A DNA stretch of 64,000 bases from Escherichia coli (GTDB lineage: Bacteria; Pseudomonadota; Gammaproteobacteria; Enterobacterales; Enterobacteriaceae). The notes under the pieces were generated by a model. The model did not search any database and was not told the DNA's origin. It saw nothing but the letters and a program-made list of their open reading frames with translations. A program made the translations under genes and the position numbers. The stretch is taken from assembly GCF_051903065.1 (NCBI RefSeq), contig NZ_CP178440.1; one strand, written 5' to 3'. The number at the start of each line of letters is the position of its first letter. The first letter of the stretch is position 1. Below, piece after piece: positions 7,202 to 64,000 of the stretch.

Positions 7202-7214
7202 GAAGGAGACGAGA

Positions 7215-12647: not shown

Positions 12648-12694
12648 GGTATATCCCCCCGGGAAAATCCCCGGGGGATGACGGAGATAATGAC

Positions 12695-16907: not shown

Positions 16908-17035
16908 GTTTATATGATCATGGGATTATATGATTATATCATTTTGTAACTATTTGATTATGTAATTTTATGATTGCATAATTTTATGAATATGAGATTA
17001 TTTGAATACTTGGCAGAGGTACTATTTGAACAAAG
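16908..17035. promoter_or_regulatory. Array of about 7 degenerate AT-rich direct repeats (TT(A/T)TGA(T/A)T) upstream of parA; candidate centromere/operator
   Basis: ttatatgatca, ttatatgattat, tttgattatgt, ttttatgattg, ttttatgaata, ttatttgaata, tatttgaaca read at roughly 11-12 bp spacing. Confidence 0.5.
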
Positions 17036-17046
17036 GGGAGAGGTGA

Positions 17047-17670
17047 ATGCCTAACGTGATAGCATTTTTAAATGGTAAGGGGGGGGTGTCTAAGACAACC
17101 TCGGCAGTTAATATTGCTACTGCTCTTGCTCGTAAGGGTTACAAAGTTGTTGTTGTGGATACCGATCCCCAGGGAAGTGTTAGTAACTGGTATGATGACA
17201 GTAAGTGTGTTTTTGATGTAGCGGAAGCTACGGCAGAAAAAGAAATTTACCGTTTGCGGAAGGCGCTTCCTTTGCACGATTTTATCATTATTGATGGTGC
17301 TGCTGCGATTTCGGCGATATCGGCGGCTGCTGTTATGGTTTCTGATCTTGTTATTATTCCAGTTACTCCTTCGCCGCTTGATTTTGCTGCGTGTGGCGCG
17401 ATATTGGCAGTGATAGAAGCTCGTCAGGATTTACGCCCGGTGATTGCTCGCTTTTTGATTACTAAAAAAGTACAGCAAACGCATATGTTATCTTTGCTGA
17501 AAGAATCTATTGCAGAAACAAGCATACCAGCATTAAAAACAGGAACGTCGTACAGGCAGTCATATATAAGATCTATGCTGGATGGTGGTACTATATTTGA
17601 TACAAAAGATAGTGCTGCTAAAGGTGAAATATCAGTTATTACAGAAGAAATACTTGGACTATTAAAATGA
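17047..17670 (+). CDS. ParA-family partition ATPase (small, type Ib-like)
   Basis: Deviant Walker [11 protein letters not shown] at N-terminus, 207 aa. Confidence 0.85.
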
Positions 17671-17873
17671 GTAAAATGAAACTTGGGAATCATAAGGCAA
17701 CAAACACTGCTCTGGATGCACTGAAGAAACCTGCGGGAGCAACCAGAAAGTTACAAATGAATATTCCAGAAGAGTTACATCTTGCATTTAAATTAGCTTG
17801 TGTGGAAGATGGCATTGATATGACACAGGTAAATATAGAACTCATTCAAAACTGGTTAAAGAGTCGTAACTGA
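17667..17873 (+). CDS. Small partition partner protein (ParG-like, probable ribbon-helix-helix centromere binder)
   Basis: 68-aa ORF overlapping parA stop; basic N-terminal tail then short structured domain. Confidence 0.5.
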
Positions 17874-18182
17874 TAGTGTTTCAGCCAGTCGTAATCTGCG
17901 ACGCAAACAAAAAGCGCTGTCCCGCAAGCTCAATGCGGCACTCAACATCCGGCAAAAAGGAATACAGGAACTACAGGCGACGGGACTCGTCGTCACTGCC
18001 CATGGAGACCAGCGTAAATCCGTCGTACAGAAGAGGATAAAATGGGAGAGCAGTTATCGATTCCCTATCCGGGCAGCCCGTTTACGGGCCGTAAGTAACG
18101 AAGTTGGATGCAAATGTCAGATCGTGTGCGCCTGTTAGGGCGCGGCTGGTAAGAGAGCCTTATAGGCGCATTTGAAAAACCT

Positions 18183-18206
18183 CCGGCTATGCCGGAGGAT
18201 ATTTAT
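18183..18206. terminator. Bidirectional rho-independent terminator hairpin (cctccggc ... gccggagg) flanked by A/T runs
   Basis: Perfect stem with T-run on the minus strand about 80 nt downstream of the adhesin stop. Confidence 0.5.
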
Positions 18207-18284
18207 TTATCGAGTTCGGTGACCGCCTGGACGGTCACTTCTGAGACAAGGCATTTACACAGAATCTTAAACAGGCTCGCTAAT

Positions 18285-19775
18285 TTACCACCCAATGGCA
18301 AAACCAGCTCCTAAGTTTGTATCACCACCATTGTTCCATGATGTGTTGACTCGTATGTTAGCATTCTGGCTCACTTTATATTGAACTCCGGCTGCGATTG
18401 CTTGAGCATCACGATAATGCCCCACGCCCATACCAAATGAAAAGCGCTCATTATTAACATAAGGAATTGATGAAATAGCGGTAACTCCGGCAATACCCGC
18501 ATTAGCACGCTTTTCGACTCTATCTATTTTTTTATTCATTTGTGAGAATCTTTGCTCATTTTTCTGCTGTAAATCATTTAATGTTTTATTGAAGTTTTTA
18601 CCTAATGTATCAACGCTAGATGCAGTATATTTGTTTGCCATTTCTAGAGTGTTTAAATCACCTTGTTCACGGAGTCTTTTCTCTTCATTGATTGCACTTG
18701 TTCTGGCTTTTTTTTCTTCATTTATTCTTGCAACTACTGATTTGCTGGGGTCTTTTTCTATATTTTTAATTTCATCTTCACTCATGCCTATAGCTTTAGT
18801 GACAACATCTAATTGGGACATATTCACAGCATCTGTAGGATTTACGCCCCCGGCAAGATTCGTGATTCTTCTGTTTATCATGGGCTCTGTCGTTGTTGCT
18901 TCCCTTCCTAAAGATACAACACCATTCTTACTATCTGTGTTCTCTACAGCGGTATATTTAGATACAGTATCATCATATTGATTATGCGTTTTCGATCTTG
19001 CCCCAAGAGCAATACTGCCTTTTGAATTAGACTCAGATAAATATCCAATGGAAACAGAATCAGTTTCCTGAGAGGCTGAATATGATCCTAATGCAATACT
19101 ATTTTTACCAATGGAATGAGACTCTAATCCTATGGCAGAACTGCCAGAGCCAATTGATAATGATTGACTACCCAATGCTGTACCAAATTCACCAACCACC
19201 GTCGAAAAGGAACCTACTGCCGTTCCTTCAATATTGTGGGAACTTGATTTATATCCCATTACAGATGACGCATATTGATTCCCATATTTCTCCTTAGCAT
19301 GAGGATCAACAGATGAGTCAACAGAAATATGTCCATCAGCGGATACTGTTATTTTTTTACCACTCACATCTAAGGATGAATTATTTTCAGGCAATTTAGT
19401 TACTGAAGCTTTGTTACCGATTAAAGTTGAATAGTTTCCTTCTGAATCAATTTTCGATCTGGATCCAACTATAGTCGAAAAAGTCCCTGCTTCTGTTGCA
19501 GAATCGTATCCTATTACTACTGATGCTCCTGCTCCTCCTTTTTCTGGTATATTCAAAGACTTAGAATTTGGACCTATTACTACTGAGAAATTTTGTTCTG
19601 ATCTTGTAGCATCACCAATTCCCTTACCAATAGCGATACTGCCAATACCTGAAGATTCTGTATTATCCGCACCAATAGCTATAGATGAGTAGCCTTTAGG
19701 ATTAGCAGCAAAAGAACAAAGGCTAACACCAGATAATGTTAATAGTATAGATGATAAAATTAATTTATTATTCAT
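18285..19775 (-). CDS. Trimeric autotransporter adhesin (YadA-like head repeats, coiled-coil stalk, C-terminal beta-barrel anchor)
   Basis: Signal peptide MNNKLILSSILLTLSGVSLCSFA, repetitive SIAIG/SxGxxS head motifs, heptad-rich stalk, C-terminal anchor ending GAGFAIGW. Confidence 0.8.
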   Translation of the reverse strand: MNNKLILSSILLTLSGVSLCSFAANPKGYSSIAIGADNTESSGIGSIAIGKGIGDATRSEQNFSVVIGPNSKSLNIPEKGGAGASVVIGYDSATEAGTFSTIVGSRSKIDSEGNYSTLIGNKASVTKLPENNSSLDVSGKKITVSADGHISVDSSVDPHAKEKYGNQYASSVMGYKSSSHNIEGTAVGSFSTVVGEFGTALGSQSLSIGSGSSAIGLESHSIGKNSIALGSYSASQETDSVSIGYLSESNSKGSIALGARSKTHNQYDDTVSKYTAVENTDSKNGVVSLGREATTTEPMINRRITNLAGGVNPTDAVNMSQLDVVTKAIGMSEDEIKNIEKDPSKSVVARINEEKKARTSAINEEKRLREQGDLNTLEMANKYTASSVDTLGKNFNKTLNDLQQKNEQRFSQMNKKIDRVEKRANAGIAGVTAISSIPYVNNERFSFGMGVGHYRDAQAIAAGVQYKVSQNANIRVNTSWNNGGDTNLGAGFAIGW

Positions 19776-19921
19776 AGCAACATATCCCACCAAAGTAGAT
19801 AGATTATCGTTATTCCTCGATAAATAAATTGCAATGTAAGATACATTAATCTTAACAATGTGTTAACATAAGAGGCTGTTAACACATTTAGTTTATAACA
19901 TAAAACATCATAAATATTAAG

Positions 19922-20741
19922 GGCACTGTTGCAAATAGTCGGTGGTGATAAACTTATCATCCCCTTTTGCTGATGGAGCTGCACATGAACCCATTCAAAG
20001 GCCGGCATTTTCAGCGTGACATCATTCTGTGGGCCGTACGCTGGTACTGCAAATACGGCATCAGTTACCGTGAGCTGCAGGAGATGCTGGCTGAACGCGG
20101 AGTGAATGTCGATCACTCCACGATTTACCGCTGGGTTCAGCGTTATGCGCCTGAAATGGAAAAACGGCTGCGCTGGTACTGGCGTAACCCTTCCGATCTT
20201 TGCCCGTGGCACATGGATGAAACCTACGTGAAGGTCAATGGCCGCTGGGCGTATCTGTACCGGGCCGTCGACAGCCGGGGCCGCACTGTCGATTTTTATC
20301 TCTCCTCCCGTCGTAACAGCAAAGCTGCATACCGGTTTCTGGGTAAAATCCTCAACAACGTGAAGAAGTGGCAGATCCCGCGATTCATCAACACGGATAA
20401 AGCGCCCGCCTATGGTCGCGCGCTTGCTCTGCTCAAACGCGAAGGCCGGTGCCCGTCTGACGTTGAACACCGACAGATTAAGTACCGGAACAACGTGATT
20501 GAATGCGATCATGGCAAACTGAAACGGATAATCAACGCCACGCTGGGATTTAAATCCATGAAGACGGCTTACGCCACCATCAAAGGTATTGAGGTGATGC
20601 GTGCACTACGCAAAGGCCAGGCCTCAGCATTTTATTATGGTGATCCCCTGGGCGAAATGCGCCTGGTAAGCAGAGTTTTTGAAATGTAAGGCCTTTGAAT
20701 AAGACAAAAGGCTGCCTCATCGCTAACTTTGCAACAGTGCC
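19922..20741 (+). mobile_element. IS26 copy 3 (820 bp), same orientation as copy 2
   Basis: Exact terminal inverted repeats; flanking 8-mers atattaag and accggaag. Confidence 0.95.
19985..20689 (+). CDS. tnpA: IS26 transposase
   Basis: Identical translation to the other copies. Confidence 0.95.
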   Translation: MNPFKGRHFQRDIILWAVRWYCKYGISYRELQEMLAERGVNVDHSTIYRWVQRYAPEMEKRLRWYWRNPSDLCPWHMDETYVKVNGRWAYLYRAVDSRGRTVDFYLSSRRNSKAAYRFLGKILNNVKKWQIPRFINTDKAPAYGRALALLKREGRCPSDVEHRQIKYRNNVIECDHGKLKRIINATLGFKSMKTAYATIKGIEVMRALRKGQASAFYYGDPLGEMRLVSRVFEM

Positions 20742-22029
20742 ACCGGAAGTACAGACCATTCGTCGTCTGGTGACCGAAAGTGAAGTGGCGGTGGCGGGGA
20801 ACAGTAAATTCCGCTTCGTGGGGGCTGATGCCTTCTCGCCAGACGAACTGCGCACCGATTTGTTCAGCGATGACGGGGACGGTTATGTCGACCGCGTGGC
20901 GCTCGATGCTGCCCTGCTGGAAAAACTCCAGGCTGTCGCAGAGTTCCTTCGGGAAGCCGAGGGCTGGGGATGGTGCGCCGGACGCATGGAGCCTGTCGGT
21001 GAATGCCGTGAAGATGCCCGGGCATACCGCAACCTGCCGGAGCCGGAAGCGGTGCTGACGGAGGCGGAAGAAGAACACCTGAACGAACTGATGGCACGTT
21101 ACGACGCGCTGGAAAACCAGTGTGAGGAATCTGACCTGCTGGCAGCAGAAATGAAGCTGATTGACTGCATGGCGAAGGTCAGGGCGTGGACGCCGGAGAT
21201 GCGTGCCGGAAGTGGCGTGGTGGTGTCCTGGCGTTACGGTAATGTGTGTATCCAGCGTGGTGTGCAGTTGCGCAGTGAGGATGATGTGGCTGACGACGCT
21301 GACCGCACGGAACAGGGGCTGGAGAGCGCGTCAGTGGAGGAAATCAGTCTGCCGTTGCTGACTAAACTGACCTCAGAGCGCACGCTGGCAGTCCAGGCAG
21401 CACTGATGCAGCAACCGGACAAATCCCTGGCACTGCTGGCATGGACGCTCTGCCTGAATGTGTTTGACAGCAAAGCGCACTGTAGTCCCGCCAGAATTCG
21501 CCTGGCATGTGAGCATTATGCGCTGACCAGCGATGCACCGTCGGGGAAGGAAGGTGCCGCATTCATGGCGCTGATGGCAGAACACTCTCGTTTTGCTGCC
21601 CTGCTGCCGGAAGGATGGGAACGGGATATGACGACGTTCCTGTCACTCAGCCAGGAGGTGCTGTTATCCCTGCTCAGCTTCTGTACCGCGTGCAGTCTTA
21701 ACGGTGTCCAGACCCGAGAGTGTGGTCACACGTCACGCAGTCCGCTTGACTCGCTGGAAACCGCCATCGGCTTTCACATGCGCGACTGGTGGCAGCCGAC
21801 AAAAGCAAACTTCTTCGGACACCTGAAAAAGCCGCAGATTATCGCAGCTCTGAATGAGGCAGGACTGTCCGGTGCCGCACGGGACGCGGAGAAGATGAAG
21901 AAAGGCGATGCGGCTGAACATGCAGAGTTCCATATGAAAGACAACCGCTGGGTGCCTGGCTGGATGTGTGCACCACGTCCACAGACGGATACCACTGAAC
22001 GCACCGATAACCTGGCTGATGCCGCCTGA
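20742..22029 (+). pseudogene. ParB-like leading-region gene, C-terminal fragment (continues the frame interrupted at 15591)
   Basis: Open frame begins exactly at the IS26 boundary; joining 15591 to 20742 gives codon ata and an uninterrupted frame. Confidence 0.6.
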
Positions 22030-23234: not shown

Positions 23235-23455
23235 TGCGGCAATAATCACACGGATTACCCGTGAACTGGTTGAACGACCAGATTATTTTCAGGGAAAGTG
23301 AGTGTGGTCAGCGTGCAGGGATATGAGCTATGATGTGCCCGGCGCTTGAGGCTTTCTGCCTCATGACGTGAAGGTGGTTTGTTGCCGTGTTGTGTGGCAG
23401 AAAGAAGATAGCCCCGTAGTAAGTTAATTTTCATTAACCACCACGAGGCATCCCT

Positions 23456-23668
23456 ATGTCTAGTCCACATCAGGATAGCCTCTTACCGCGCTTTGCGCAA
23501 GGAGAAGAAGGCCATGAAACTACCACGAAGTTCCCTTGTCTGGTGTGTGTTGATCGTGTGTCTCACACTGTTGATATTCACTTATCTGACACGAAAATCG
23601 CTGTGCGAGATTCGTTACAGAGACGGACACAGGGAGGTGGCGGCTTTCATGGCTTACGAATCCGGTAA
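23456..23668 (+). CDS. mok: Mok (modulation of killing) reading frame overlapping hok
   Basis: 70-aa ORF in alternate frame spanning hok. Confidence 0.55.
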
Positions 23669-24998: not shown

Positions 24999-25820
24999 AT
25001 GCGATTAGCTTCCCGTTTTGGTCGGTATAATTCCATCCGCCGTGAACGTCCTTTAACGGATGATGAATTAATGCAGTTCGTGCCTTCGGTATTTTCCGGT
25101 GATAAACATGAGTCCCGGAGTGAACGTTATACGTATATTCCAACAATCAATATCATCAATAAGTTACGTGATGAAGGTTTCCAGCCATTCTTTGCCTGTC
25201 AGAGTCGGGTTCGTGATTTGGGACGTCGCGAATACAGTAAACATATGTTACGTCTTCGCAGGGAAGGGCATATTAACGGGCAGGAAGTTCCTGAAATTAT
25301 CCTGCTTAATTCACATGATGGTTCATCCAGTTATCAGATGATCCCCGGAATTTTTCGTTTTGTCTGCACAAATGGCCTGGTGTGCGGAAATAATTTTGGC
25401 GAAATCCGCGTTCCACATAAAGGTGATATTGTCGGGCAGGTTATCGAGGGAGCGTATGAAGTGCTCGGTGTCTTTGATAAGGTCACTGATAATATGGAGG
25501 CGATGAAAGAAATTCATCTTAACAGTGACGAGCAACATTTATTTGGCAGAGCTGCACTGATGGTCAGGTATGAAGATGAAAATAAAACGCCAGTGACACC
25601 TGAACAGATAATTACTCCCCGTCGTCGGGAAGACAAACAGAACGATCTCTGGACAACCTGGCAGCGGGTTCAGGAGAATATGATAAAAGGTGGATTATCG
25701 GGGCGAAGTGCCTCCGGGAAAAATACCAGGACAAGAGCCATTACAGGTATTGATGGTGATATAAGAATCAACAAGGCGTTATGGGTGATTGCCGAACAGT
25801 TCAGAAAGTGGAAGTCATGA
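24999..25820 (+). CDS. Hypothetical leading-region protein (273 aa)
   Basis: ORF with RBS aaaggag; conserved near oriT in F-like plasmids as far as I recall. Confidence 0.55.
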   Translation: MRLASRFGRYNSIRRERPLTDDELMQFVPSVFSGDKHESRSERYTYIPTINIINKLRDEGFQPFFACQSRVRDLGRREYSKHMLRLRREGHINGQEVPEIILLNSHDGSSSYQMIPGIFRFVCTNGLVCGNNFGEIRVPHKGDIVGQVIEGAYEVLGVFDKVTDNMEAMKEIHLNSDEQHLFGRAALMVRYEDENKTPVTPEQIITPRRREDKQNDLWTTWQRVQENMIKGGLSGRSASGKNTRTRAITGIDGDIRINKALWVIAEQFRKWKS

Positions 25821-25830
25821 TAATATAAGT

Positions 25831-25858
25831 AAAGCCCCGAAAAAATTTTCGGGGCTTT
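25831..25858. terminator. Rho-independent terminator hairpin aagccccgaaaa / ttttcggggctt
   Basis: Perfect 12-bp stem directly after the 24999-25820 gene stop. Confidence 0.6.
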
Positions 25859-26116
25859 ACTTATATTATCATTTTTCGGCATTGCTGTGTCGTCTGATAT
25901 ACCTCAATTTCATCAACCGGCTTTCCGGTTGTCTGTAAATATTGTGCCCGCGAAAAATGGTCTGGCAGGAGGCTGCGCAGTTACCGGGTATATATAAGAT
26001 GGGTTCCCGCTTCGCGGGGCTTCGGCCAGTCAGTATTGTCACTCATATGATATTTTTGTGTGTGGCCTTCCATGCCGCTTTTGCGGCATAACCGGTATCT
26101 GACAATGTCTGTAAGA

Positions 26117-26626
26117 TTAATTGTTCTGCACGCTGTTAATTTCCGGAAGTGATTTCTTCGTGGCCGGAAGCCGGATACCTTTACTGCTTTTTATCCCGGT
26201 ATAAATCCGGTAAACCTCTGATGCGTAGGCAAGACGTCTCTGGTTCTGGCGTTCGGATTTCCTGAATCCTGCATTGTATGCACCAACGGCCTCCCAGGTG
26301 ACGCCCCATTTTTTAAATGCTATTGCCAGATAATAAGCACCGGTATAAATGTTCATGCAGGGATCTGTTGTCAGATGTTCCGGCTTAATTCCGTAGCGGG
26401 CCAGTTCGTTAAAATGCTGGGAATCTACCTGCATCAGTCCGCTGCCATATCCCGTTACCGGATTAATACCGATGGCATTAACCCGGTAACGGGATTCTTT
26501 CCATGATATTGCTCTCAGTAAATCAGGATCTATTTTGTAATCCCGGCCTGCAAGATCAAAGCAATCAGTGGCATGGCAGATCTCATTTATAAACATCAGG
26601 CAGATGGCTAACATCCATTTTTTCAT
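26117..26626 (-). CDS. Lytic transglycosylase (F gene X / orf169 homologue), signal peptide plus SLT domain
   Basis: 169 aa from [11 protein letters not shown] with RBS gaggtgg; SLT-type motifs in translation; ORF-track 215-aa version over-extends across oriT. Confidence 0.8.
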
Positions 26627-27040
26627 TTTTCCACCTCTGGTGACTTTATCCGTAAATAATTTAACCCACTCCACAAAAAGGCTCAACAGGTTGGTGGTTC
26701 TCACCACCAAAAGCACCACACCCCACGCAAAAACAAGTTTTTGCTGATTTGCTTTTTGAATCATTAGCTTATGTTTTAAATAATGTATTTTAATTTATTT
26801 TACATTATTAAATAGGGGCGTTGACGACCCTATGGCGACCCTATGGCGACCCTTGTTAGGGTCAGTACTGACAAATTTTATGAAAAACATTTGGATATAT
26901 TAGGGCCGCCCCTAGCAGCGCCGTGCGTTTTTTTATAGTATGCCCCTAGGGGCGCTGCTAGGGGTGCTCTTCTTTTTTCAGACCAAACTATGAGTAAATG
27001 AAATAAAACACTTGTTTCAGAATATAAAAGGTACTGTCTT
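26627..27040. other. Origin of transfer (oriT) region between gene X and traM, with direct repeats cgaccctatgg x2 and inverted repeats (ctagcagcgcc / ggcgctgctag)
   Basis: Position, nic 22-mer, repeat architecture typical of relaxosome accessory-protein binding sites. Confidence 0.8.
26710..26731 (-). other. oriT nic region, minus-strand 5'-tttgcgtggggtgt/ggtgcttt-3'; predicted nick between 26718 and 26717
   Basis: Exact match to the F TraI ssDNA recognition 22-mer as I recall it; the 5' end at the nick leads into the leading region. Confidence 0.7.
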
Positions 27041-27424
27041 ATGGCCAGAGTAAATCTGTATATCAGTAATGAGGTTCATGAAAAAATTAACATGATTGTT
27101 GAAAAGCGTCGTCAGGAGGGAGCAAGAGATAAAGATATAAGCCTTTCAGGAACTGCTTCAATGCTTCTTGAATTGGGGCTTCGCGTATATGATGCACAGA
27201 TGGAGCGTAAAGAGTCTGCGTTTAACCAGACAGAGTTTAATAAACTTCTTCTTGAATGTGTTGTAAAAACACAGTCAACGGTGGCAAAGATTTTAGGTAT
27301 TGAGTCTCTCAGTCCTCATGTCTCCGGAAACCCGAAGTTTGAATATGCCAGTATGGTTGACGATATCAGAGAGAAAGTGTCTGTTGAGATGGACCGGTTT
27401 TTTCCAAAAAATGATGATGAATAA
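27041..27424 (+). CDS. traM: Relaxosome accessory protein TraM
   Basis: 127-aa ORF MARVNLYISNEVHEKINMIVEKRRQEGA...; first gene after oriT. Confidence 0.9.
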   Translation: MARVNLYISNEVHEKINMIVEKRRQEGARDKDISLSGTASMLLELGLRVYDAQMERKESAFNQTEFNKLLLECVVKTQSTVAKILGIESLSPHVSGNPKFEYASMVDDIREKVSVEMDRFFPKNDDE

Positions 27425-27539
27425 ATGAAAATGAAGTTTGAGTTGGTTCAAATATAAGAATTTTTATGATTCAAAAAGATGACAATACGTCAGATAATTA
27501 GTATATTAATTACGTGGTTAATGCCACGTTAAAAATTGA

Positions 27540-27615
27540 AACTGAAAATCGCCGATGCAGGGAGGTCTGAACTCCCTGCATCGACTGTCCATAGAATCCT
27601 TAACGGAGGTTCCTA
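27540..27615 (-). ncRNA. finP: FinP antisense RNA (approximate), complementary to the traJ leader and RBS
   Basis: Stem-loop gatgcagggag-gtctgaact-ccctgcatc at about 27555-27583 in the traJ 5' leader; ends not determined. Confidence 0.4.
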
Positions 27616-28301
27616 TGTGTGCGCTGGATCGTAGAGAAAGGCCACTTAACAGTCAATCTGTAAATAAGTACATCCTTAACGTTCAGAATATCTACAGAAA
27701 TTCTCCCGTTCCGGTTTGTGTCCGTAACAAAAACCGGAAAATCCTTTATGCCAATGGGGCTTTTATTGAACTCTTTTCCAGAGAAGATAAACCCTTATCC
27801 GGAGAGAGTTATATACGTCTGCAGGTTGAAATTTTTCTTTCATCACTTGAATTGGAATGCCAGGCTCTTGGACATGGCTCTGCATTTTGTCGTCGTTTTA
27901 ATTTTCATGGCGAAATCTATCAGATAAGGATGGAGAATGTTTCTTTTTATAATGACGAATCTGTTGTTTTATGGCAAATTAATCCGTTTCCTGATTATCC
28001 ATTTTTTGCGTTAAGTCAGAGTGGAAGTAATACAAATACTTCTGATAAATTAACGATATGGAATGATCTTTCCCCCGGGACATTGCTTGTTTTCTCTTTT
28101 TATATGCTGGGTGTTGGTCATGCAACAATTGCCAGAGAATTGGGTATTACAGACAGAGCATCTGAGGATCGAATTAAACCAGTTAAACGGAAAATAAAAG
28201 AATTTTTTGAACACTTTGATTTATTCAGAGTGTCATGTATCTATAAAGGGAAAATAGATTTGCTATTAAATATAATTCGTGAATTTTATAGCGTTAAGTA
28301 A
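27615..28301 (+). CDS. traJ: Transfer operon activator TraJ
   Basis: ORF from ATG after RBS ggagg; position between traM and traY; ORF-track start is 20 codons upstream. Confidence 0.8.
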
Positions 28302-28394: not shown

Positions 28395-28622
28395 GTGAGG
28401 AGGCGTAACGCGAGAGGCGGTATAAGCAGAACAGTCTCGGTGTATCTCGATGAAGATACAAATAACCGACTTATTAAGGCCAAAGATCGTAGTGGAAGAA
28501 GTAAAACGATAGAAGTCCAGATCCGTCTCAGAGATCATCTGAAACGATTTCCTGATTTCTATAACGAAGAAATATTCAGGGAGGTGACCGAAGAGAGCGA
28601 GTCAACATTTAAAGAACTTTAG
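28395..28622 (+). CDS. traY: TraY, oriT-binding ribbon-helix-helix protein (GTG start)
   Basis: 75-aa ORF, position before traA. Confidence 0.75.
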   Translation: MRRRNARGGISRTVSVYLDEDTNNRLIKAKDRSGRSKTIEVQIRLRDHLKRFPDFYNEEIFREVTEESESTFKEL

Positions 28623-39095: not shown

Positions 39096-39157
39096 GTCTG
39101 GTGGTTCTCATAAATATAACTGTGTGTGCATGTGTACAATATAAGTAAAGGTGCGTT

Positions 39158-39679: not shown

Positions 39680-39690
39680 ATTATATCACT

Positions 39691-52079: not shown

Positions 52080-54341
52080 ATGAGTTTTAACGCAAAGGAT
52101 ATGACCCAGGGCGGTCAGATTGCGTCCATGCGTATCCGCATGTTCAGCCAGATCGCCAATATCATGCTTTACTGCCTGTTTATTTTTTTCTGGATACTCG
52201 TTGGTCTGGTTTTATGGGTAAAAATAAGCTGGCAGACGTTTGTGAACGGCTGTATTTACTGGTGGTGTACCACGCTGGAAGGCATGCGGGATTTAATCAA
52301 GTCCCAGCCGGTCTATGAGATCCAGTATTACGGCAAAACCTTCCGGATGAATGCTGCTCAGGTACTGCATGATAAATATATGATCTGGTGCGGAGAGCAG
52401 CTATGGTCCGCATTCGTTCTGGCCACAGTTGTGGCACTGGTTATTTGCCTGATTACCTTCTTTGTTGTCTCCTGGATTCTGGGGCGTCAGGGTAAACAAC
52501 AGAGCGAAAATGAAGTCACAGGTGGTCGTCAGCTGACAGACAATCCGAAAGACGTTGCCCGGATGCTGAAAAAAGACGGCAAGGACTCCGATATCCGGAT
52601 TGGCGACCTGCCGATTATCCGGGATTCTGAAATCCAGAACTTCTGTCTGCACGGCACGGTCGGGGCCGGTAAGTCGGAAGTTATCCGTCGTCTGGCCAAC
52701 TACGCCCGTCAGCGCGGTGATATGGTGGTGATTTATGACCGTTCAGGGGAATTTGTTAAAAGTTACTATGATCCCTCCATCGATAAGATCCTGAATCCGC
52801 TGGATGCCCGCTGTGCCGCCTGGGATTTATGGAAGGAGTGTCTGACACAGCCGGATTTTGATAATACGGCAAATACCCTGATCCCGATGGGCACAAAAGA
52901 GGACCCGTTCTGGCAGGGTTCAGGACGTACCATTTTTGCGGAAGCGGCGTACCTGATGCGTAATGACCCCAACCGCAGCTACAGCAAACTGGTGGACACA
53001 CTGCTTTCCATCAAAATCGAAAAACTGCGTACCTTCCTGCGTAATTCACCGGCGGCCAACCTGGTGGAAGAGAAAATTGAGAAAACGGCGATTTCCATCC
53101 GTGCTGTGCTGACCAACTACGTGAAAGCCATCCGTTACCTGCAGGGGATTGAGCATAACGGTGAGTCTTTTACCATCCGTGACTGGATGCGGGGTGTCCG
53201 GGAAGATCAGAAAAACGGCTGGCTGTTTATCTCGTCGAATGCCGACACCCATGCCTCCCTGAAGCCGGTGATCTCCATGTGGCTGTCCATTGCCATTCGT
53301 GGTCTGCTGGCAATGGGAGAAAACCGTAACCGTCGTGTGTGGTTTTTCTGTGATGAGCTACCCACGTTACACAAACTGCCGGACCTGGTGGAGATCCTGC
53401 CGGAAGCCCGTAAGTTCGGTGGCTGTTATGTGTTTGGTATCCAGTCCTATGCCCAGCTGGAAGATATCTACGGTGAGAAAGCGGCTGCCACGCTGTTTGA
53501 CGTCATGAACACCCGTGCCTTTTTCCGTTCTCCCAGCCATAAGATTGCAGAGTTCGCTGCCGGTGAGATTGGTGAGAAAGAGCACCTGAAAGCCAGCGAG
53601 CAGTACTCCTACGGTGCTGATCCGGTACGTGACGGGGTATCGACCGGTAAGGATATGGAGCGCCAGACGCTGGTCAGTTATTCCGACATTCAGTCTCTGC
53701 CGGATTTGACCTGTTATGTCACCCTGCCCGGACCGTATCCGGCAGTAAAACTCTCACTGAAATATCAGGCACGTCCGAAGGTTGCCCCTGAGTTTATTCC
53801 GCGTGACATCAACCCGGAAATGGAGAACCGCCTGAGCGCCGTACTTGCCGCAAGGGAAGCAGAAGGTCGTCAGATGGCCAGCCTCTTCGAACCGGATGTG
53901 CCGGAAGTTGTTTCCGGAGAAGACGTGACTCAGGCTGAACAGCCGCAACAGCCGCAACAGCCGCAACAGCCGCAACAGCCGCAACAGCCGCAACAGCCGC
54001 AACAGCCGCAACAGCCGCAACAGCCGCAACAGCCGCAACAGCCGCAACAGCCGCAACAGCCGGTGTCTCCCGCCATCAACGATAAGAAGTCAGATTCAGG
54101 TGTGAATGTTCCGGCAGGGGGGATCGAGCAGGAGCTGAAAATGAAACCGGAAGAAGAGATGGAACAGCAACTGCCACCCGGGATCAGTGAATCCGGTGAA
54201 GTGGTGGATATGGCCGCTTATGAGGCATGGCAACAGGAAAATCATCCGGACATCCAGCAGCAGATGCAGCGTCGTGAAGAGGTGAACATTAATGTGCACC
54301 GGGAGCGCGGGGAGGATGTTGAGCCGGGAGATGATTTCTGA
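52080..54341 (+). CDS. traD: TraD type IV coupling protein
   Basis: 753-aa ORF, Walker [10 protein letters not shown]-terminal QPQ repeat and acidic tail. Confidence 0.95.
53940..54062 (+). repeat. Tandem 9-bp repeat cagccgcaa, about 13.7 copies, in-frame within traD (QPQ repeats)
   Basis: Counted directly in sequence. Confidence 0.95.
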
Positions 54342-57300
54342 TGATGAGTATCGCGCAGGTCAGATCGGCCGGAAGTGCCGGTAACTATTATACCGACAAG
54401 GATAATTACTATGTGCTGGGCAGCATGGGAGAACGCTGGGCCGGCAGGGGGGCTGAACAGCTGGGACTGCAGGGCAGTGTCGATAAGGATGTTTTTACCC
54501 GTCTTCTGGAGGGAAGGCTGCCGGACGGAGCGGATCTAAGCCGCATGCAGGATGGCAGTAACAGGCATCGTCCCGGCTACGACCTGACCTTCTCCGCCCC
54601 CAAAAGTGTCTCCATGATGGCCATGTTAGGTGGCGATAAGCGCCTGATTGATGCACATAACCAGGCCGTGGACTTTGCTGTTCGTCAGGTGGAGGCGCTG
54701 GCCTCCACACGGGTGATGACGGACGGACAGTCAGAAACGGTGCTGACCGGTAATCTGGTGATGGCACTGTTTAACCACGACACTAGTCGCGATCAGGAAC
54801 CACAGTTACACACGCATGCGGTGGTGGCTAATGTCACGCAGCATAACGGTGAGTGGAAGACACTGAGCAGTGACAAAGTGGGGAAAACGGGGTTCATTGA
54901 GAATGTGTACGCTAATCAGATTGCCTTTGGCAGGCTCTATCGGGAAAAACTGAAAGAGCAGGTTGAGGCGCTGGGCTATGAAACCGAAGTGGTGGGTAAG
55001 CACGGTATGTGGGAGATGCCGGGCGTACCGGTGGAGGCCTTTTCCGGACGCTCACAGGCTATCCGAGAGGCCGTCGGGGAAGATGCCTCGCTAAAATCCC
55101 GGGATGTGGCGGCACTGGATACGCGAAAATCCAAACAGCACGTCGATCCTGAAGTCAGAATGGCTGAATGGATGCAGACGCTGAAGGAAACCGGGTTCGA
55201 CATCCGGGCATATCGTGACGCGGCGGATCAGCGTGCGGAGACCCGCACGCAGGCGCCCGGGGCTGTTTCACAGGAGGGGCCGGATGTGCAGCAGGCGGTG
55301 ACACAGGCGATTGCCGGATTAAGTGAACGAAAAGTGCAGTTTACGTACACGGACGTGCTGGCCAGAACAGTCGGCATACTGCCGCCGGAAAATGGTGTGA
55401 TTGAACGGGCACGCGCCGGTATCGATGAGACCATCAGCCGTGAGCAACTCATCCCCCTTGACCGTGAGAAGGGGCTGTTCACGTCCGGGATTCATGTGCT
55501 CGATGAACTGTCAGTCCGGGCACTCAGTCGCGATATCATGAAACAGAACCGGGTGACCGTACATCCGGAGAAAAGTGTCCCCCGGACGGCCGGCTACAGT
55601 GATGCCGTCAGTGTTCTGGCACAGGACCGTCCGTCGCTGGCCATTGTGTCCGGGCAGGGCGGTGCAGCCGGGCAGCGTGAGCGGGTGGCTGAACTGGTCA
55701 TGATGGCCCGGGAGCAGGGGCGGGAGGTGCAGATTATCGCTGCTGACCGTCGCTCGCAGATGAACCTGAAGCAGGATGAACGGCTGTCCGGTGAGCTGAT
55801 AACCGGACGTCGTCAGCTGCCGGAAGGCATGGCCTTCACGCCGGGCAGTACTGTTATCGTTGACCAGGGCGAAAAACTCTCCCTGAAAGAGACGTTAACC
55901 CTGCTAGACGGTGCCGCACGTCATAACGTACAGGTCCTGATAACCGACAGCGGGCAGCGAACCGGTACAGGCAGTGCGCTGATGGCCATGAAGGATGCCG
56001 GGGTTAACATATATCGCTGGCAGGGCGGAGAGCAACGACCGGCAACCATCATCAGTGAACCGGACCGTAATGTCCGCTATGCCCGGCTGGCCGGGGACTT
56101 TGCGGCCAGCGTGAAAGCCGGAGAAGAGAGCGTGGCACAGGTCAGCGGGGTACGGGAACAGGCCATACTGACACAGGCCATTCGCAGTGAGCTGAAAACA
56201 CAGGGCGTGCTCGGACACCCGGAGGTAACCATGACCGCCCTGTCACCGGTCTGGCTGGACAGCCGGAGCCGTTATCTGCGGGATATGTACCGCCCGGGAA
56301 TGGTGATGGAGCAGTGGAACCCGGAGACACGCAGTCATGACCGCTATGTTATCGACCGGGTGACGGCGCAGAGTCACAGCCTGACCCTGCGGGATGTGCA
56401 GGGCGAAACGCAGGTGGTGCGTATTTCCTCCCTGGACAGCAGCTGGTCGCTGTTCCGGCCGGAAAAAATGCCGGTGGCAGACGGCGAGCGACTGAGGGTG
56501 ACCGGGAAAATTCCCGGACTCCGAGTCTCCGGCGGTGACCGCCTGCAGGTGGCATCCGTCAGTGAAGATGTGATGACGGTTGTTGTGCCGGGGCGGGCTG
56601 AACCGGCCTCCCTGCCTGTGAGCGATTCACCGTTCACGGCACTGAAGCTGGAGAATGGCTGGGTGGAAACGCCCGGGCATTCCGTCAGCGACAGTGCGAA
56701 GGTTTTTGCCTCCGTCACACAGATGGCAATGGACAAGGCCACCCTGAACGGTCTGGCCCGCAGCGGTCGTGATGTCCGGCTGTATTCCTCACTGGATGAA
56801 ACCCGTACTGCGGAAAAACTTGCCCGCCATCCGTCCTTTACGGTGGTTTCTGAGCAGATAAAGGCGCGGGCCGGTGAGACATCGCTGGAAACGGCTATCA
56901 GTCATCAGAAGTCCGCACTTAACACGCCGGCACAGCAGGCCATTCATCTTGCCCTTCCGGTGGTGGAAAGTAAAAACCTGGCCTTCAGCCATGTGGACCT
57001 GCTGACAGAGGCAAAGTCGTTTGCTGCAGAAGGAACCAGTTTTGCTGACCTGGGGCGGGAAATCGATGCGCAGATAAAACGGGGCGATTTACTGCATGTG
57101 GATGTGGCAAAAGGTTATGGCACAGACCTGCTGGTTTCCCGTGCGTCGTATGAGGCTGAAAAAAGCATTCTTCGCCATATTCTCGAAGGTAAGGAGGCGG
57201 TCACGCCGCTGATGGAGAGAGTACCTGGCGAACTCATGGAGAAACTGACATCAGGACAGCGCGCCGCCACCCGCATGATACTGGAAACGCCCGACCGTTT

Positions 57301-59611
57301 CACGGTGGTGCAGGGCTATGCCGGTGTGGGTAAGACCACACAGTTCCGGGCGGTGATGTCAGCCGTGAACATGCTGCCGGAGAGTGAGCGTCCCCGTGTC
57401 GTTGGGCTGGGCCCCACGCACCGTGCGGTCGGGGAGATGCGCAGCGCCGGCGTGGATGCACAGACACTGGCGTCCTTTCTGCATGACACGCAACTGCAGC
57501 AGCGCAGCGGAGAAACGCCGGATTTCAGCAACACGCTGTTCCTGCTCGATGAGAGCTCAATGGTGGGCAATACCGACATGGCACGGGCATACGCCCTGAT
57601 TGCGGCCGGTGGTGGTCGTGCCGTGGCCAGCGGTGACACGGACCAGCTGCAGGCCATCGCGCCCGGTCAGCCTTTCCGTCTCCAGCAGACGCGCAGTGCT
57701 GCCGATGTGGCCATCATGAAGGAGATTGTGCGTCAGACGCCGGAACTGCGGGAGGCGGTATACAGCCTGATTAACCGGGATGTGGAAAGGGCACTGTCCG
57801 GGCTTGAGAGTGTGAAACCGTCTCAGGTGCCACGTCAGGAGGGCGCATGGGCACCGGAGCACTCCGTGACGGAGTTCAGTCACAGCCAGGAAGCAAAACT
57901 GGCAGAAGCGCAGCAGAAGGCGATGCTGAAAGGCGAGGCTTTCCCGGATGTCCCCATGACACTGTATGAAGCCATTGTCCGCGACTATACCGGCAGGACA
58001 CCGGAAGCACGGGAGCAGACGCTGATTGTCACGCACCTGAATGAGGACCGGCGCGTGCTGAACAGCATGATTCATGATGCACGGGAAAAGGCCGGTGAGC
58101 TGGGAAAAGAGCAGGTCATGGTGCCTGTCCTGAACACAGCGAATATACGTGACGGAGAACTGCGTCGTCTTTCCACCTGGGAGACACATCGGGACGCACT
58201 TGCCCTGGTGGATAATGTGTATCACCGGATTGCCGGTATCAGCAGGGATGACGGGCTGATAACCCTGCAGGATGCGGAAGGTAACACGCGGCTGATTTCG
58301 CCCCGGGAGGCGGTGGCTGAAGGTGTCACACTGTACACCCCGGACAAAATCCGGGTGGGGACCGGTGACCGGATGCGCTTCACGAAGAGTGACCGGGAGC
58401 GTGGTTATGTGGCCAACAGCGTCTGGACGGTGACAGCGGTATCCGGTGACAGTGTCACGCTGTCGGACGGACAGCAGACCCGGGTGATTCGCCCCGCCCA
58501 GGAGCAGGCAGAGCAACATATTGACCTGGCCTATGCCATCACCGCCCACGGTGCGCAGGGTGCGAGTGAAACCTTTGCCATTGCGCTTGAAGGCACGGAA
58601 GGTAACCGGAAACTGATGGCCGGCTTTGAGTCAGCCTACGTGGCCCTGTCGCGTATGAAGCAGCATGTGCAGGTGTACACCGATAACCGTCAGGGCTGGA
58701 CGGATGCCATTAACAATGCCGTACAGAAAGGAACTGCCCACGATGTGCTGGAGCCGAAACCGGACCGGGAGGTCATGAATGCAGAGCGGCTGTTCAGTAC
58801 GGCGCGGGAGCTGCGGGACGTGGCGGCAGGGCGTGCCGTTCTTCGTCAGGCGGGGCTTGCCGGGGGAGACAGTCCTGCACGGTTTATTGCACCGGGGCGT
58901 AAATATCCACAGCCGTATGTGGCACTGCCGGCGTTTGACCGTAACGGCAAATCAGCCGGTATCTGGCTGAACCCGCTGACCTCGGATGATGGAAACGGGC
59001 TGCGGGGATTCAGTGGTGAAGGCCGTGTGAAAGGCAGCGGGGATGCGCAGTTCGTGGCCCTGCAGGGCAGCCGTAACGGAGAAAGCCTGCTGGCTGATAA
59101 TATGCAGGATGGTGTCCGGATTGCCCGTGATAATCCTGACAGTGGTGTGGTGGTAAGAATCGCCGGTGAAGGCCGTCCGTGGAATCCCGGTGCCATCACC
59201 GGTGGCCGCGTGTGGGGGGATATCCCGGACAACAGCGTCCAGCCGGGAGCCGGAAATGGCGAGCCGGTCACGGCAGAGGTACTGGCACAGCGGCAGGCTG
59301 AAGAGGCCATCCGCCGTGAAACGGAACGCCGTGCGGATGAAATTGTCCGTAAAATGGCAGAGAACAAACCTGACCTGCCGGATGGCAAAACAGAGCAGGC
59401 TGTCAGGGAGATTGCCGGGCAGGTGCGTGAGCGGGCTGCCATAACTGAACGGGAAACTGCGCTGCCGGAGAGTGTGCTGCGTGAACCACAACGGGAGCGG
59501 GAAGCGGTCCGGGAGGTTGCCCGGGAAAATCTGCTGCAGGAGCGTCTGCAGCAGATGGAGCGGGATATGGTCCGTGACCTGCAGAAAGAGAAAACCCTGG
59601 GCGGAGACTGA
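54341..59611 (+). CDS. traI: TraI relaxase-helicase
   Basis: 1756-aa ORF; start overlaps traD stop. Confidence 0.95.
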   Translation: MMSIAQVRSAGSAGNYYTDKDNYYVLGSMGERWAGRGAEQLGLQGSVDKDVFTRLLEGRLPDGADLSRMQDGSNRHRPGYDLTFSAPKSVSMMAMLGGDKRLIDAHNQAVDFAVRQVEALASTRVMTDGQSETVLTGNLVMALFNHDTSRDQEPQLHTHAVVANVTQHNGEWKTLSSDKVGKTGFIENVYANQIAFGRLYREKLKEQVEALGYETEVVGKHGMWEMPGVPVEAFSGRSQAIREAVGEDASLKSRDVAALDTRKSKQHVDPEVRMAEWMQTLKETGFDIRAYRDAADQRAETRTQAPGAVSQEGPDVQQAVTQAIAGLSERKVQFTYTDVLARTVGILPPENGVIERARAGIDETISREQLIPLDREKGLFTSGIHVLDELSVRALSRDIMKQNRVTVHPEKSVPRTAGYSDAVSVLAQDRPSLAIVSGQGGAAGQRERVAELVMMAREQGREVQIIAADRRSQMNLKQDERLSGELITGRRQLPEGMAFTPGSTVIVDQGEKLSLKETLTLLDGAARHNVQVLITDSGQRTGTGSALMAMKDAGVNIYRWQGGEQRPATIISEPDRNVRYARLAGDFAASVKAGEESVAQVSGVREQAILTQAIRSELKTQGVLGHPEVTMTALSPVWLDSRSRYLRDMYRPGMVMEQWNPETRSHDRYVIDRVTAQSHSLTLRDVQGETQVVRISSLDSSWSLFRPEKMPVADGERLRVTGKIPGLRVSGGDRLQVASVSEDVMTVVVPGRAEPASLPVSDSPFTALKLENGWVETPGHSVSDSAKVFASVTQMAMDKATLNGLARSGRDVRLYSSLDETRTAEKLARHPSFTVVSEQIKARAGETSLETAISHQKSALNTPAQQAIHLALPVVESKNLAFSHVDLLTEAKSFAAEGTSFADLGREIDAQIKRGDLLHVDVAKGYGTDLLVSRASYEAEKSILRHILEGKEAVTPLMERVPGELMEKLTSGQRAATRMILETPDRFTVVQGYAGVGKTTQFRAVMSAVNMLPESERPRVVGLGPTHRAVGEMRSAGVDAQTLASFLHDTQLQQRSGETPDFSNTLFLLDESSMVGNTDMARAYALIAAGGGRAVASGDTDQLQAIAPGQPFRLQQTRSAADVAIMKEIVRQTPELREAVYSLINRDVERALSGLESVKPSQVPRQEGAWAPEHSVTEFSHSQEAKLAEAQQKAMLKGEAFPDVPMTLYEAIVRDYTGRTPEAREQTLIVTHLNEDRRVLNSMIHDAREKAGELGKEQVMVPVLNTANIRDGELRRLSTWETHRDALALVDNVYHRIAGISRDDGLITLQDAEGNTRLISPREAVAEGVTLYTPDKIRVGTGDRMRFTKSDRERGYVANSVWTVTAVSGDSVTLSDGQQTRVIRPAQEQAEQHIDLAYAITAHGAQGASETFAIALEGTEGNRKLMAGFESAYVALSRMKQHVQVYTDNRQGWTDAINNAVQKGTAHDVLEPKPDREVMNAERLFSTARELRDVAAGRAVLRQAGLAGGDSPARFIAPGRKYPQPYVALPAFDRNGKSAGIWLNPLTSDDGNGLRGFSGEGRVKGSGDAQFVALQGSRNGESLLADNMQDGVRIARDNPDSGVVVRIAGEGRPWNPGAITGGRVWGDIPDNSVQPGAGNGEPVTAEVLAQRQAEEAIRRETERRADEIVRKMAENKPDLPDGKTEQAVREIAGQVRERAAITERETALPESVLREPQREREAVREVARENLLQERLQQMERDMVRDLQKEKTLGGD

Positions 59612-63440: not shown

Positions 63441-63689
63441 ATGTCGCAGACAGAAAATGCAGTGACTTCCTCATCAGGTACAAAGCGAGCATACCGAAAA
63501 GGTAATCCTCTGACGCTTGCAGAACGTCAGCAGGCATCTCTGGCAAGAAAACGTGCCACACATAAAGAACTCAGAGTGTTCATTCCTGCTGCGTTAAAAG
63601 CGCAATTACAGGAGATGTGTGACGCTGAAGGTGTTACTCAGGCTGAGATGATTGCTGAACTGATAAAGCAGAAGAGTGCTTTCAGCTAA
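63441..63689 (+). CDS. copB: CopB (RepA2) transcriptional repressor of the FII replicon
   Basis: 82-aa [27 protein letters not shown]... resembles R1/R100 CopB. Confidence 0.85.
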
Positions 63690-63933
63690 CTAAAATGTAG
63701 CGACATCACATTCTTGCCTGTTTGTGGTGTGCGTGATAGATTGCTGATCGTTTAAGGAATTTTGTGGCTGGCCACGCCATAAGGTGGCAGGGAACTGGTT
63801 CTGATGTGGATGTACAGGAGCCAGAAAAGCGAAAACCCCGATAATCTTCTTTAACTTTGGCGAGTCAGAAAGATTACCGGGGCTAACAAGAAACTGCATA
63901 GAAGCTGTTGCTCTATGCGGGGAGTATAGTTAT

Positions 63934-64000
63934 ATGCCCGGAAAAGTTCAAGACTTCTTTCTGTGCTCACTCCTTCTGTGCAACATAAGTGCAGGATGGT
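63934..64000 (+). CDS. Start of repA leader peptide (tap), truncated by window end; the antisense CopA RNA region would lie just upstream on the minus strand
   Basis: [22 protein letters not shown] read from ATG 63934. Confidence 0.4.

What the first reader, a model, noticed from the sequence alone, without database searches (positions are those of the whole stretch)
26710..26731. oriT nic sequence matches the F-specificity 22-mer although the replicon region is FII-like
The minus strand reads tttgcgtggggtgtggtgcttt, which as I recall is the F TraI recognition sequence; the R100-type relaxase prefers a site differing by two bases near the nick. An F-type nic site on a plasmid with a copB/tap FII replicon indicates a mosaic backbone or informs which relaxase specificity class this TraI belongs to.
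Basis: partly seen in the sequence, partly recalled or inferred. Interest (0 to 1): 0.3.

Follow-up and report, generated by a model that had tools for sequence, protein, structure and literature searches.

The report
Ordinary F/R1-type plasmid transfer nick site
This is the normal cutting site where a common antibiotic-resistance plasmid starts its transfer to another cell; it matches its own cutting enzyme, and the classic plasmid R1 of the same replication type has the same site, so nothing here is unusual.

Summary
Window 26710-26731 (minus strand) reads TTTGCGTGGGGTGTGGTGCTTT, once only, with 0 matches expected by chance.

F carries the identical 22-mer. R100 carries TTTGCGTAGTGTGTGGTGCTTT, which differs at two bases (-5 and -7 from the nick).

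The window's relaxase TraI (54341-59611) has the F-class residues M2, E153, Q193 and R201, where R100 has L2, D153, R193 and Q201. Site and enzyme are therefore a matched F-class pair.

The inference that an F-type nick site on an FII replicon signals a mosaic is not supported:
- R1, the IncFII archetype, has exactly the same 22-mer and the same TraI residues, and a published paper says so.
- The DNA on both sides of the nick is 98-100% R1-like.
- R1 and R100 are both IncFII but belong to different nick classes, so nick class is independent of replicon type.
- In PLSDB about 2,385 plasmids carry the exact F-type 67-mer and about 1,193 the R100-type.

The window is a pHK01-like IncFII blaCTX-M plasmid. 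Its tra region is mosaic in the way usual for F-like plasmids, for example a non-R1 traM/TraM-site cassette inside an R1-like oriT.

Verdict: already known, low interest.

The parts
26710..26731 (-). 22-nt TraI relaxase recognition sequence around nic, F/R1 class (TTTGCGTGGGGTGT|GGTGCTTT)
   Evidence: Exact and unique in the window. Identical to F and R1, two differences from R100.
26717..26718 (-). Inferred scissile bond (nic) between T26718 (-1) and G26717 (+1) on the minus (transferred) strand
   Evidence: Placed by identity with the F/R1 site. PMC2504302 puts the scissile phosphate between T141' and G140'. Nicking was not tested here.
26722..26724 (-). The two class-discriminating bases: G at -5 (26722) and G at -7 (26724); R100 has T and A
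   Evidence: Alignment of window, F, R1 and R100.
26727..26744 (-). Inverted repeat 5' of nic (GCAAAAA-CTTG-TTTTTGC)
   Evidence: Predicted hairpin in the ssDNA fold. Invariant in F, R1 and R100.
26691..26710 (-). Inverted repeat 3' of nic (TTGGTGGT-GAGA-ACCACCAA), within the region bound by TraI in helicase mode
   Evidence: Predicted hairpin; invariant in the four plasmids. The role is taken from PMC5422253 and PMC12117103.
26745..26771 (+). IHF-binding site (IHFa-like): TGATTTGCTTTTTGAATCATTAGCTTA
   Evidence: Two substitutions from the R1 IHF sequence quoted in PMC12117103.
26783..26805 (+). TraY-binding subsites of R1 type (ATGT, ATTT ... ACAT), 11 bp from the IHF site
   Evidence: This stretch is identical to R1. 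The subsites and spacing are as described for R1 in PMC12117103. Binding is inferred.
26813..26968 (.). Putative TraM-binding region (sbm-like repeats GGGTCGCCATA x2-3 and CCCTAGCAGCGCCCCTAGGGG palindromes); not R1-type, closest to R100
   Evidence: 43-55% identical to R1 and 71-81% to R100 in 100-nt bins; alignment. Binding is inferred.
27041..27424 (+). traM (127 aa), a distinct allele: 86% to F, 76% to R1, 88% to R100
   Evidence: NCBIfam PRK13713 230 bits and Pfam Tra_M.
27545..27621 (-). FinP antisense RNA, opposite the traJ 5' UTR (27512-27620, plus strand)
   Evidence: Rfam RF00107 91 bits; RF00243 117.8 bits.
27615..28301 (+). traJ, R1 allele (97% to R1; no tblastn match at E<=1e-5 to F or R100 TraJ)
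   Evidence: PAS fold.
28395..28622 (+). traY (75 aa, single RHH), R1 allele (96% to R1, about 50% to F and R100)
   Evidence: NCBIfam NF010302 178 bits.
54341..59611 (+). traI relaxase/helicase (1756 aa). Trans-esterase domain is aa 1-~300 (54341-55240). Q193 codon at 54917-54919, R201 codon at 54941-54943.
   Evidence: NCBIfam TraI equivalogs; Pfam TrwC, TraI_2B and TraI_C. PDB 1p4d, 2a0i and 5n8o at E about 1e-213. Y16/Y17, D81 and H146/H157/H159 are present. Specificity residues.
52080..54341 (+). traD coupling protein (753 aa); the C-terminal tail that TraM binds is identical to F and R1
26117..26626 (-). Gene X / orf169 (R1 gene 19 homologue), the lytic transglycosylase and first leading-region gene after nic
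   Evidence: Pfam SLT; 98-99% identical to the F and R1 proteins.
63441..63689 (+). copB (repA2), the IncFII replication control protein; a divergent allele (54% to R1, 64% to R100)
63827..63916 (-). CopA antisense RNA of the IncFII replicon
   Evidence: Rfam RF00042, 88.8 bits.
63935..64000 (+). tap leader peptide, cut by the window end; repA1 lies beyond the window
   Evidence: Sequence read. The 701-nt control region is 100% identical to NZ_CP082958.1, whose RepA is 95% identical to R1 and R100 RepA.

Best explanation
The 22-mer is the working nick site (nic) of the oriT of a conjugative pHK01-like IncFII plasmid that carries blaCTX-M. It belongs to the F/R1 recognition class and is paired with a TraI relaxase of the same class. 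By analogy with F and R1, IHF and TraY bend the DNA next to nic. The TraI trans-esterase domain binds the T-strand 5' of nic as single-stranded DNA, reading the G at -5 and the G at -7 through residues that include Q193 and R201. Y16 cleaves between T(-1) and G(+1) and stays attached to the 5' end. A second TraI loads 3' of nic as a helicase, and TraM links the complex to TraD. An F-type nic beside an FII replicon needs no special explanation, because it is the native arrangement of the R1 branch of IncFII plasmids. R100 represents the other branch. Shown here: sequence identity, the matched TraI residues, intact catalytic residues, an intact tra operon, and R1-like flanks. Inferred: actual binding, nicking and transfer.
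For: The exact, unique 22-mer lies at the canonical position between gene X and traM. It is identical in F and R1 and differs by two bases in R100. TraI has M2/E153/Q193/R201 as in F and R1, whereas R100 has L2/D153/R193/Q201. In 8 of 8 plasmids examined the nic class matched the TraI class. Catalytic Y16/Y17, D81 and H146/H157/H159 are present. The relaxase domain matches solved F and R1 TraI structures at E about 1e-213. The window is 98-100% R1-like from 25600 to 26800, including the IHF and TraY sites, and 93-100% R1-like across traJ and traY. PMC3245843 says the sequences around nic are identical in R1 and F, and that E153D/Q193R/R201Q abolishes function on the R1 nic. PMC7826260 recounts that a double mutant switches F TraI to the R100 target. 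The exact F-type 67-mer is in about 2,385 PLSDB records and the R100-type in about 1,193. Matching TraI peptide classes number 2,654 and 1,731. The IncFII control elements copB, CopA and tap are present.
Against: No experiment was done here, so nicking and transfer are inferred. The TraM/sbm module is not R1-type, so the relaxosome combines parts of different allelic origin, and its efficiency is assumed from how common the arrangement is (758 PLSDB records at >=99% identity over the 1.6-kb oriT-traM-traJ segment). repA lies outside the window, so the FII assignment rests on copB, CopA, tap and a relative that is 100% identical across the 701-nt control region. The PLSDB counts are identity-band counts, not per-record pairings. 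FinO and FinP are intact, so transfer is probably repressed most of the time.
Confidence: 0.92

Rival explanations
1. One reading: the F-type nic on an FII replicon marks a mosaic in which oriT and traI were acquired from an F (IncFI) plasmid by an FII backbone.
For: The tra region is mosaic when compared gene by gene: TraS is 98% F-type with no R1 or R100 match, TraN is 96% R100-type, TraA is 97% F-like, and TraM is its own allele. Full-length TraI is marginally closer to F (97.3%) than to R1 (97.0%).
Against: R1, which is itself IncFII, has the same 22-mer and the same TraI residues. On the traM side of nic the window is 98% R1-like but only 73% F-like. TraY and TraJ are R1 alleles. The TraI relaxase domain (aa 1-330) is 97.6% identical to R1 and 97.0% to F. 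R1 and R100 share a replicon type but differ in nic class, so the nic/replicon combination carries no information about mosaicism.
Confidence: 0.05
2. The site is an inactive relic: an oriT kept in a plasmid that can no longer transfer itself, or a chance match.
For: None specific. FinO (186 aa) and FinP are intact, so expression of transfer functions is probably repressed.
Against: Chance expectation is 0.00 matches. All tra/trb ORFs from traM to traX are present at full length and collinear with NZ_CP082958.1 (99.25% over 42.8 kb), which PLSDB types as conjugative. The TraI catalytic residues are intact.
Confidence: 0.03
3. The relaxosome has hybrid specificity: the nic/TraI pair is F/R1 class, but because the TraM/sbm cassette is non-R1, the plasmid forms a separate functional specificity group not equivalent to F, R1 or R100.
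For: Window 26800-27500 is only 43-87% R1-like and 71-93% R100-like. The TraM beta-ribbon reads MARVN, with R3 as in R100 and N5 as in F. PMC3159463 shows that residues 3 and 5 set TraM/sbmA allelic specificity.
Against: This concerns TraM rather than the nic site, so it does not change what the 22-mer is. The TraD tail that TraM contacts is identical to F and R1. The arrangement is very common, and allelic shuffling of traM among F-like plasmids is a long-known theme (PMC3159463).
Confidence: 0.3

Closest known systems
oriT/nic and TraI of plasmid R1 (IncFII archetype; NZ_KY749247)
   Same: The 22-mer is identical, as are the flanking inverted repeats. The IHF site differs at 2 positions and the TraY subsites are identical. 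The window is 98-100% identical from the leading region to about 100 bp past nic. TraJ is 97% and TraY 96% identical. TraI M2/E153/Q193/R201 are identical. The replicon type (IncFII, with copB/CopA/tap) and FinO/FinP are shared.
   Different: The TraM-binding region and traM are a different allele (TraM 76% identical). TraS is F-type and TraN is R100-type. The copB/copA control region is only 77% identical in nucleotides, so it is a different FII copy-control allele.
oriT/nic and TraI of plasmid F (IncFI; NC_002483)
   Same: The 22-mer and both inverted repeats are identical. The TraI specificity and catalytic residues are identical, and TraI is 97.3% identical overall. TraS is 98% and TraA 97% identical.
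   Different: The IHF/TraY-site region is only 73% identical. TraY is the two-domain 133-aa form in F (about 50% identity) and TraJ is unrelated. F has FIA/FIB replicons and lacks a functional finO.
oriT/nic and TraI of plasmid R100 (IncFII; NC_002134)
   Same: The replicon family is the same. The oriT layout is the same, and the sequence from nic towards gene X is identical. The TraM/sbm region and TraN are the closest matches to the window (88% and 96%).
   Different: The nic site differs at -5 (T) and -7 (A). TraI has L2/D153/R193/Q201 and 13 differences within aa 140-215. The TraJ and TraY alleles are unrelated or about 50% identical.

Membership tests
F-like (MOBF/TrwC-type) oriT, F/R1 nic class | Recognition sequence TTTGCGTGGGGTGT|GGTGCTTT, with G at -5 and G at -7 | tested here: met
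   Exact match at 26710-26731 (minus strand), identical to F and R1.
F-like (MOBF/TrwC-type) oriT, F/R1 nic class | Position between the leading-region gene X/orf169 and traM, with an inverted repeat 5' of nic and IHF and TraY sites towards traM | tested here: met
   Gene order. Hairpins. IHF site with 2 mismatches to the R1 sequence, and R1-identical TraY subsites.
F-like (MOBF/TrwC-type) oriT, F/R1 nic class | Cognate relaxase with a TrwC-type trans-esterase domain, catalytic Tyr16, and a His triad plus Asp81 | tested here: met
   Pfam TrwC 264.9 bits and NCBIfam TraI equivalogs. PDB 1p4d, 2a0i and 5n8o at E about 1e-213. Residues checked.
F/R1 relaxase specificity class (as opposed to R100 class) | TraI residues Q193 and R201 (with E153 and M2); R100 has R193, Q201, D153 and L2 | tested here: met
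   The role of these residues is taken from Harley & Schildbach 2003 as cited in PMC3245843 and PMC7826260; the original paper could not be opened.
F/R1 relaxase specificity class (as opposed to R100 class) | Site-specific binding and cleavage of the F-type but not the R100-type oligonucleotide; mobilisation by F/R1 helpers | not testable with these tools
   This needs biochemistry or mating assays.
R100 nic class | Recognition sequence TTTGCGTAGTGTGT|GGTGCTTT with TraI R193/Q201 | tested here: not met
   The window has G at both positions and Q193/R201.
IncFII replicon | copB (repA2) repressor, CopA antisense RNA and tap leader peptide upstream of repA1 | tested here: met
   copB: NCBIfam PRK13702, 138 bits. 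CopA: RF00042, 88.8 bits. The tap N-terminus was read.
IncFII replicon | RepA1 initiator of the IncFII family | tested here: inconclusive
   repA lies beyond the window end. In NZ_CP082958.1, which is 100% identical over the 701-nt control region, RepA is 285 aa and 95% identical to R1 and R100 RepA.

The most novel reading that the evidence does not exclude
The most novel reading still open does not concern the nic site. It concerns the neighbouring module: the traM gene and its binding sites (about 26813-27424) form a cassette of separate origin set inside an otherwise R1-type oriT-traJ-traY block. Its TraM recognition ribbon (R3, N5) is intermediate between R100 (R3, I5) and F (K3, N5). This could be an experimentally uncharacterised TraM/sbm specificity allele in a very widespread lineage of IncFII CTX-M plasmids, giving a relaxosome with F/R1 relaxase specificity but its own TraM specificity.
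Probability: 0.15. Interest if true: 0.3.

Novelty: already known. Interest (0 to 1): 0.07.

Why it matters
It matters little beyond correct annotation. Knowing the nic/TraI class predicts which helper plasmids can mobilise this oriT: F and R1 relaxases, not the R100 relaxase. It also shows that replicon type (IncFII) does not predict relaxase specificity class. This is relevant to predicting cross-mobilisation among resistance plasmids, but it has been established since the F, R1 and R100 comparisons of the 1990s and 2000s.

Tried and rejected
- I tried to open Harley & Schildbach 2003 (PMC208742) and Fekete & Frost 2000 (PMC94588). Neither is held, so their content is cited only through papers that quote them.
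- Accessions AP001918 and KY749247 were not in the collections. NC_002483 and NZ_KY749247 worked.
- The MOB-suite replicon labels in PLSDB are not usable for this question. They call R1, R100 and the nearest relative all 'IncFIA', so I relied on copB, CopA, tap and RepA instead.
- I considered a per-record cross-tabulation of nic class, TraI class and replicon allele over all of PLSDB. The tools return only band counts and at most 60 rows, so I used band counts plus 8 individually checked plasmids.
- In one search the best identity was 98.7% rather than 100%. I attribute this to the tool translating the first (GTG) codon of the fragment as Met, but I did not verify it.
- I rejected the chance-match and relic-oriT readings.

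Full report
**Observation.** The minus strand of window 26710-26731 reads TTTGCGTGGGGTGTGGTGCTTT. It is the only match in the 64-kb window even when three mismatches are allowed, and none of 100 dinucleotide-preserving shuffles produced one.

**Context.** The window is most of a conjugative F-like plasmid.
- The 22-mer lies between the leading-region lytic transglycosylase gene (gene X/orf169, 26117-26626, minus strand; Pfam SLT) and traM (27041-27424).
- A complete tra operon follows, through traD (52080-54341), traI (54341-59611), traX and finO (60432-60992).
- The nearest PLSDB record is NZ_CP082958.1, a 67.3-kb conjugative blaCTX-M-55 plasmid. It is 99.25% identical over window 21186-64000 and 99.6% over 1-13492.
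- Rfam finds FinP, the traJ 5' UTR, two sok RNAs and CopA, plus the antisense RNA families AS-traI, AS-traG and AS-pc01; Rfam describes AS-pc01 as antisense to pHK01_035.

**Replicon.**
- copB is at 63441-63689 (NCBIfam PRK13702 138 bits; Pfam RepB-RCR_reg).
- CopA is at 63827-63916, minus strand (RF00042, 88.8 bits).
- tap starts at 63935, and the window ends inside it.
- repA is outside the window. The 701-nt control region is 100% identical to NZ_CP082958.1, whose 285-aa RepA is annotated as an IncFII initiator and is 95% identical to the R1 and R100 RepA.
- The control region itself is only about 77% identical in nucleotides to R1 and R100. CopB is 54% identical to the R1 protein and 64% to the R100 protein. 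This is a different FII copy-control allele, found at >=99% identity in about 705 PLSDB records.

**Reference comparison of nic.** I fetched F (NC_002483), R100 (NC_002134) and R1 (NZ_KY749247).
- F and R1 carry exactly the window's 22-mer.
- R100 reads TTTGCGTAGTGTGTGGTGCTTT.
- With the scissile bond taken as GTGT|GG (PMC2504302 places it between T141' and G140'), the two differences are at -5 (G in the window, F and R1; T in R100; window 26722) and at -7 (G versus A; window 26724).

**Relaxase class.**
- The window's TraI (1756 aa) has M2, E153, Q193 and R201, as do F and R1. R100 has L2, D153, R193 and Q201.
- Within aa 140-215 the R100 protein differs from the window's at 13 positions. F and R1 differ at none.
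- PMC3245843 re-created the exchanges E153D/Q193R/R201Q, first characterised in F TraI by Harley & Schildbach 2003, in R1 TraI, which lost function on the R1 nic. [quoted passage not shown]
- PMC7826260 recounts that a double mutant switches F TraI to the R100 target.
- Catalytic Y16/Y17, D81 and H146/H157/H159 are intact.
- The first 330 aa match the solved F and R1 TraI structures (1p4d, 2a0i, 5n8o, 9f0x) at E about 1e-213.
- The site and its enzyme are therefore a matched F/R1-class pair.

**Co-variation and frequency.**
- In 8 of 8 plasmids checked individually, the nic class matched the TraI class. The eight were the window, F, R1, NZ_CP082958.1, R100, LC763831.1, NZ_CP145619.1 and NZ_CP095574.1.
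- In PLSDB the exact F-type 67-mer around nic occurs in about 2,385 records and the exact R100-type 67-mer in about 1,193.
- The F/R1-type TraI peptide 140-215 occurs in about 2,654 records. The band where R100-type peptides fall (80-90% identity) holds about 1,731.
- These are band counts, not per-record pairings. They are consistent with two common, co-varying classes in which the F/R1 class is the majority.

**Is the nic/replicon combination a sign of mosaicism?** No.
- R1 and R100 are both IncFII yet fall in different nic/TraI classes, so replicon type does not predict nic class.
- In 100-nt bins the window is 98-100% identical to R1 from 25600 to 26800, which covers the leading region, nic, the IHF site and the TraY subsites. 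In the 26700-26800 bin it is only 73% identical to F and 78% to R100.
- The IHF site (26745-26771) differs at two positions from the R1 sequence quoted in PMC12117103.
- The R1 TraY subsites ATGT/ATTT/ACAT, with their 11-bp spacing from the IHF site, are identical.
- TraJ (97%) and TraY (96%) are R1 alleles.
- The nic is therefore 'F-type' only in name. In this plasmid it sits in R1-lineage DNA.

**What is mosaic.**
- Between about 26800 and 27500 (the TraM-binding region plus traM) identity to R1 falls to 43-87%, and R100 is the closest at 71-93%.
- TraM is 86% identical to F, 76% to R1 and 88% to R100. Its N-terminal ribbon is MARVN, with R3 as in R100 and N5 as in F.
- Residues 3 and 5 were shown to set TraM/sbmA allelic specificity (PMC3159463).
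- Further along, TraS is F-type (98%) and TraN is R100-type (96%).
- This gene-by-gene shuffling is the familiar pattern for F-like tra regions. The particular arrangement is very common: 758 PLSDB records are >=99% identical over the 1.6-kb oriT-traM-traJ segment.
- The TraD C-terminal tail that TraM binds is identical to that of F and R1.

**Mechanism (inferred from the F and R1 systems).**
- IHF and TraY bend oriT.
- The T-strand between two hairpin-forming repeats (26727-26744 and 26691-26710; DNA fold -13.2 kcal/mol, z = -2.7) is presented as single-stranded DNA.
- The TraI trans-esterase domain binds the sequence 5' of nic and cleaves after T26718.
- A second TraI loads 3' of nic as a helicase (PMC5422253, PMC12117103).
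- TraM bridges the complex to TraD (PMC3159463).
- Because the sequence 3' of nic on the minus strand runs into gene X, the leading region enters the recipient first.
- FinO and FinP are intact, so transfer is probably repressed, as in R1 and R100.

**Verdict.** The biochemical recollection is right, and the relaxase class is F/R1 as the proposed check predicts. The 'mosaic backbone' inference is not supported, because R1 already shows this pairing and the local DNA is R1-like. The finding is already known biology and of low interest.

Noticed in passing
window 26800-27500: Relative to R1, the TraM-binding region and traM form a replaced cassette (43-87% identical to R1, 71-93% to R100) inside otherwise 93-100% R1-like DNA. 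The TraM ribbon MARVN combines R3 (as in R100) with N5 (as in F). The arrangement is very common: 758 PLSDB records are >=99% identical over the surrounding 1.6 kb.
   Followed up: partly
window 15592-20741: An IS26-bounded insert is absent from the nearest plasmid NZ_CP082958.1. It carries a ParA-family ATPase (17047-17670), probably with ParG, and a 502-aa YadA-like trimeric autotransporter adhesin (18285-19793, minus strand). Only one PLSDB record (NZ_CP058715.1, E. coli from Manis javanica) holds nearly the whole inner segment, at 99.9% identity.
   Followed up: partly
window 120-995 (-): A blaCTX-M family extended-spectrum beta-lactamase gene (291 aa; NCBIfam blaCTX-M 626.8 bits). IS26 copies lie nearby at about 1363-2184, and others at 15592-16411 and 19921-20742.
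   Followed up: partly
window 26117-26764 (-): The longest ORF for gene X (215 aa, the start used by RefSeq-style annotation in relatives) begins upstream of nic and runs across it. The classical 169-aa start at 26626 has a GAGGTGG Shine-Dalgarno sequence and a signal-peptide-like N-terminus, so the long call is probably an over-extension.
   Followed up: no
window 63300-64000: The FII copy-control region (copB, CopA, tap) is only about 77% identical to R1 and R100, although RepA in the closest relative is 95% identical to theirs. This is a distinct FII incompatibility/copy-control allele, shared at >=99% identity by about 705 PLSDB records from E. coli, Klebsiella, Proteus and E. albertii.
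   Followed up: partly
window 57190-57266 (-), 47682-47767 (-), 10907-11009 (-): Rfam matches above the gathering score to the antisense RNA families AS-traI, AS-traG and AS-pc01. Rfam describes AS-pc01 as antisense to pHK01_035, which points to a pHK01-like backbone.
   Followed up: no
window 40735-41160 (+) and 38787-40712: Extra small ORFs lie between traU/trbC and traN. One of them is annotated as an HNH endonuclease in the near-identical plasmid NZ_CP082958.1, and there are several hypothetical ORFs. They are absent from the F tra operon at this position.
   Followed up: no
window 23340-23516 (+) and 62863-63020 (+): There are two hok/sok-type toxin-antitoxin loci (Rfam sok, 88.9 and 90.9 bits), one in the leading region and one next to the replicon.
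   Followed up: no
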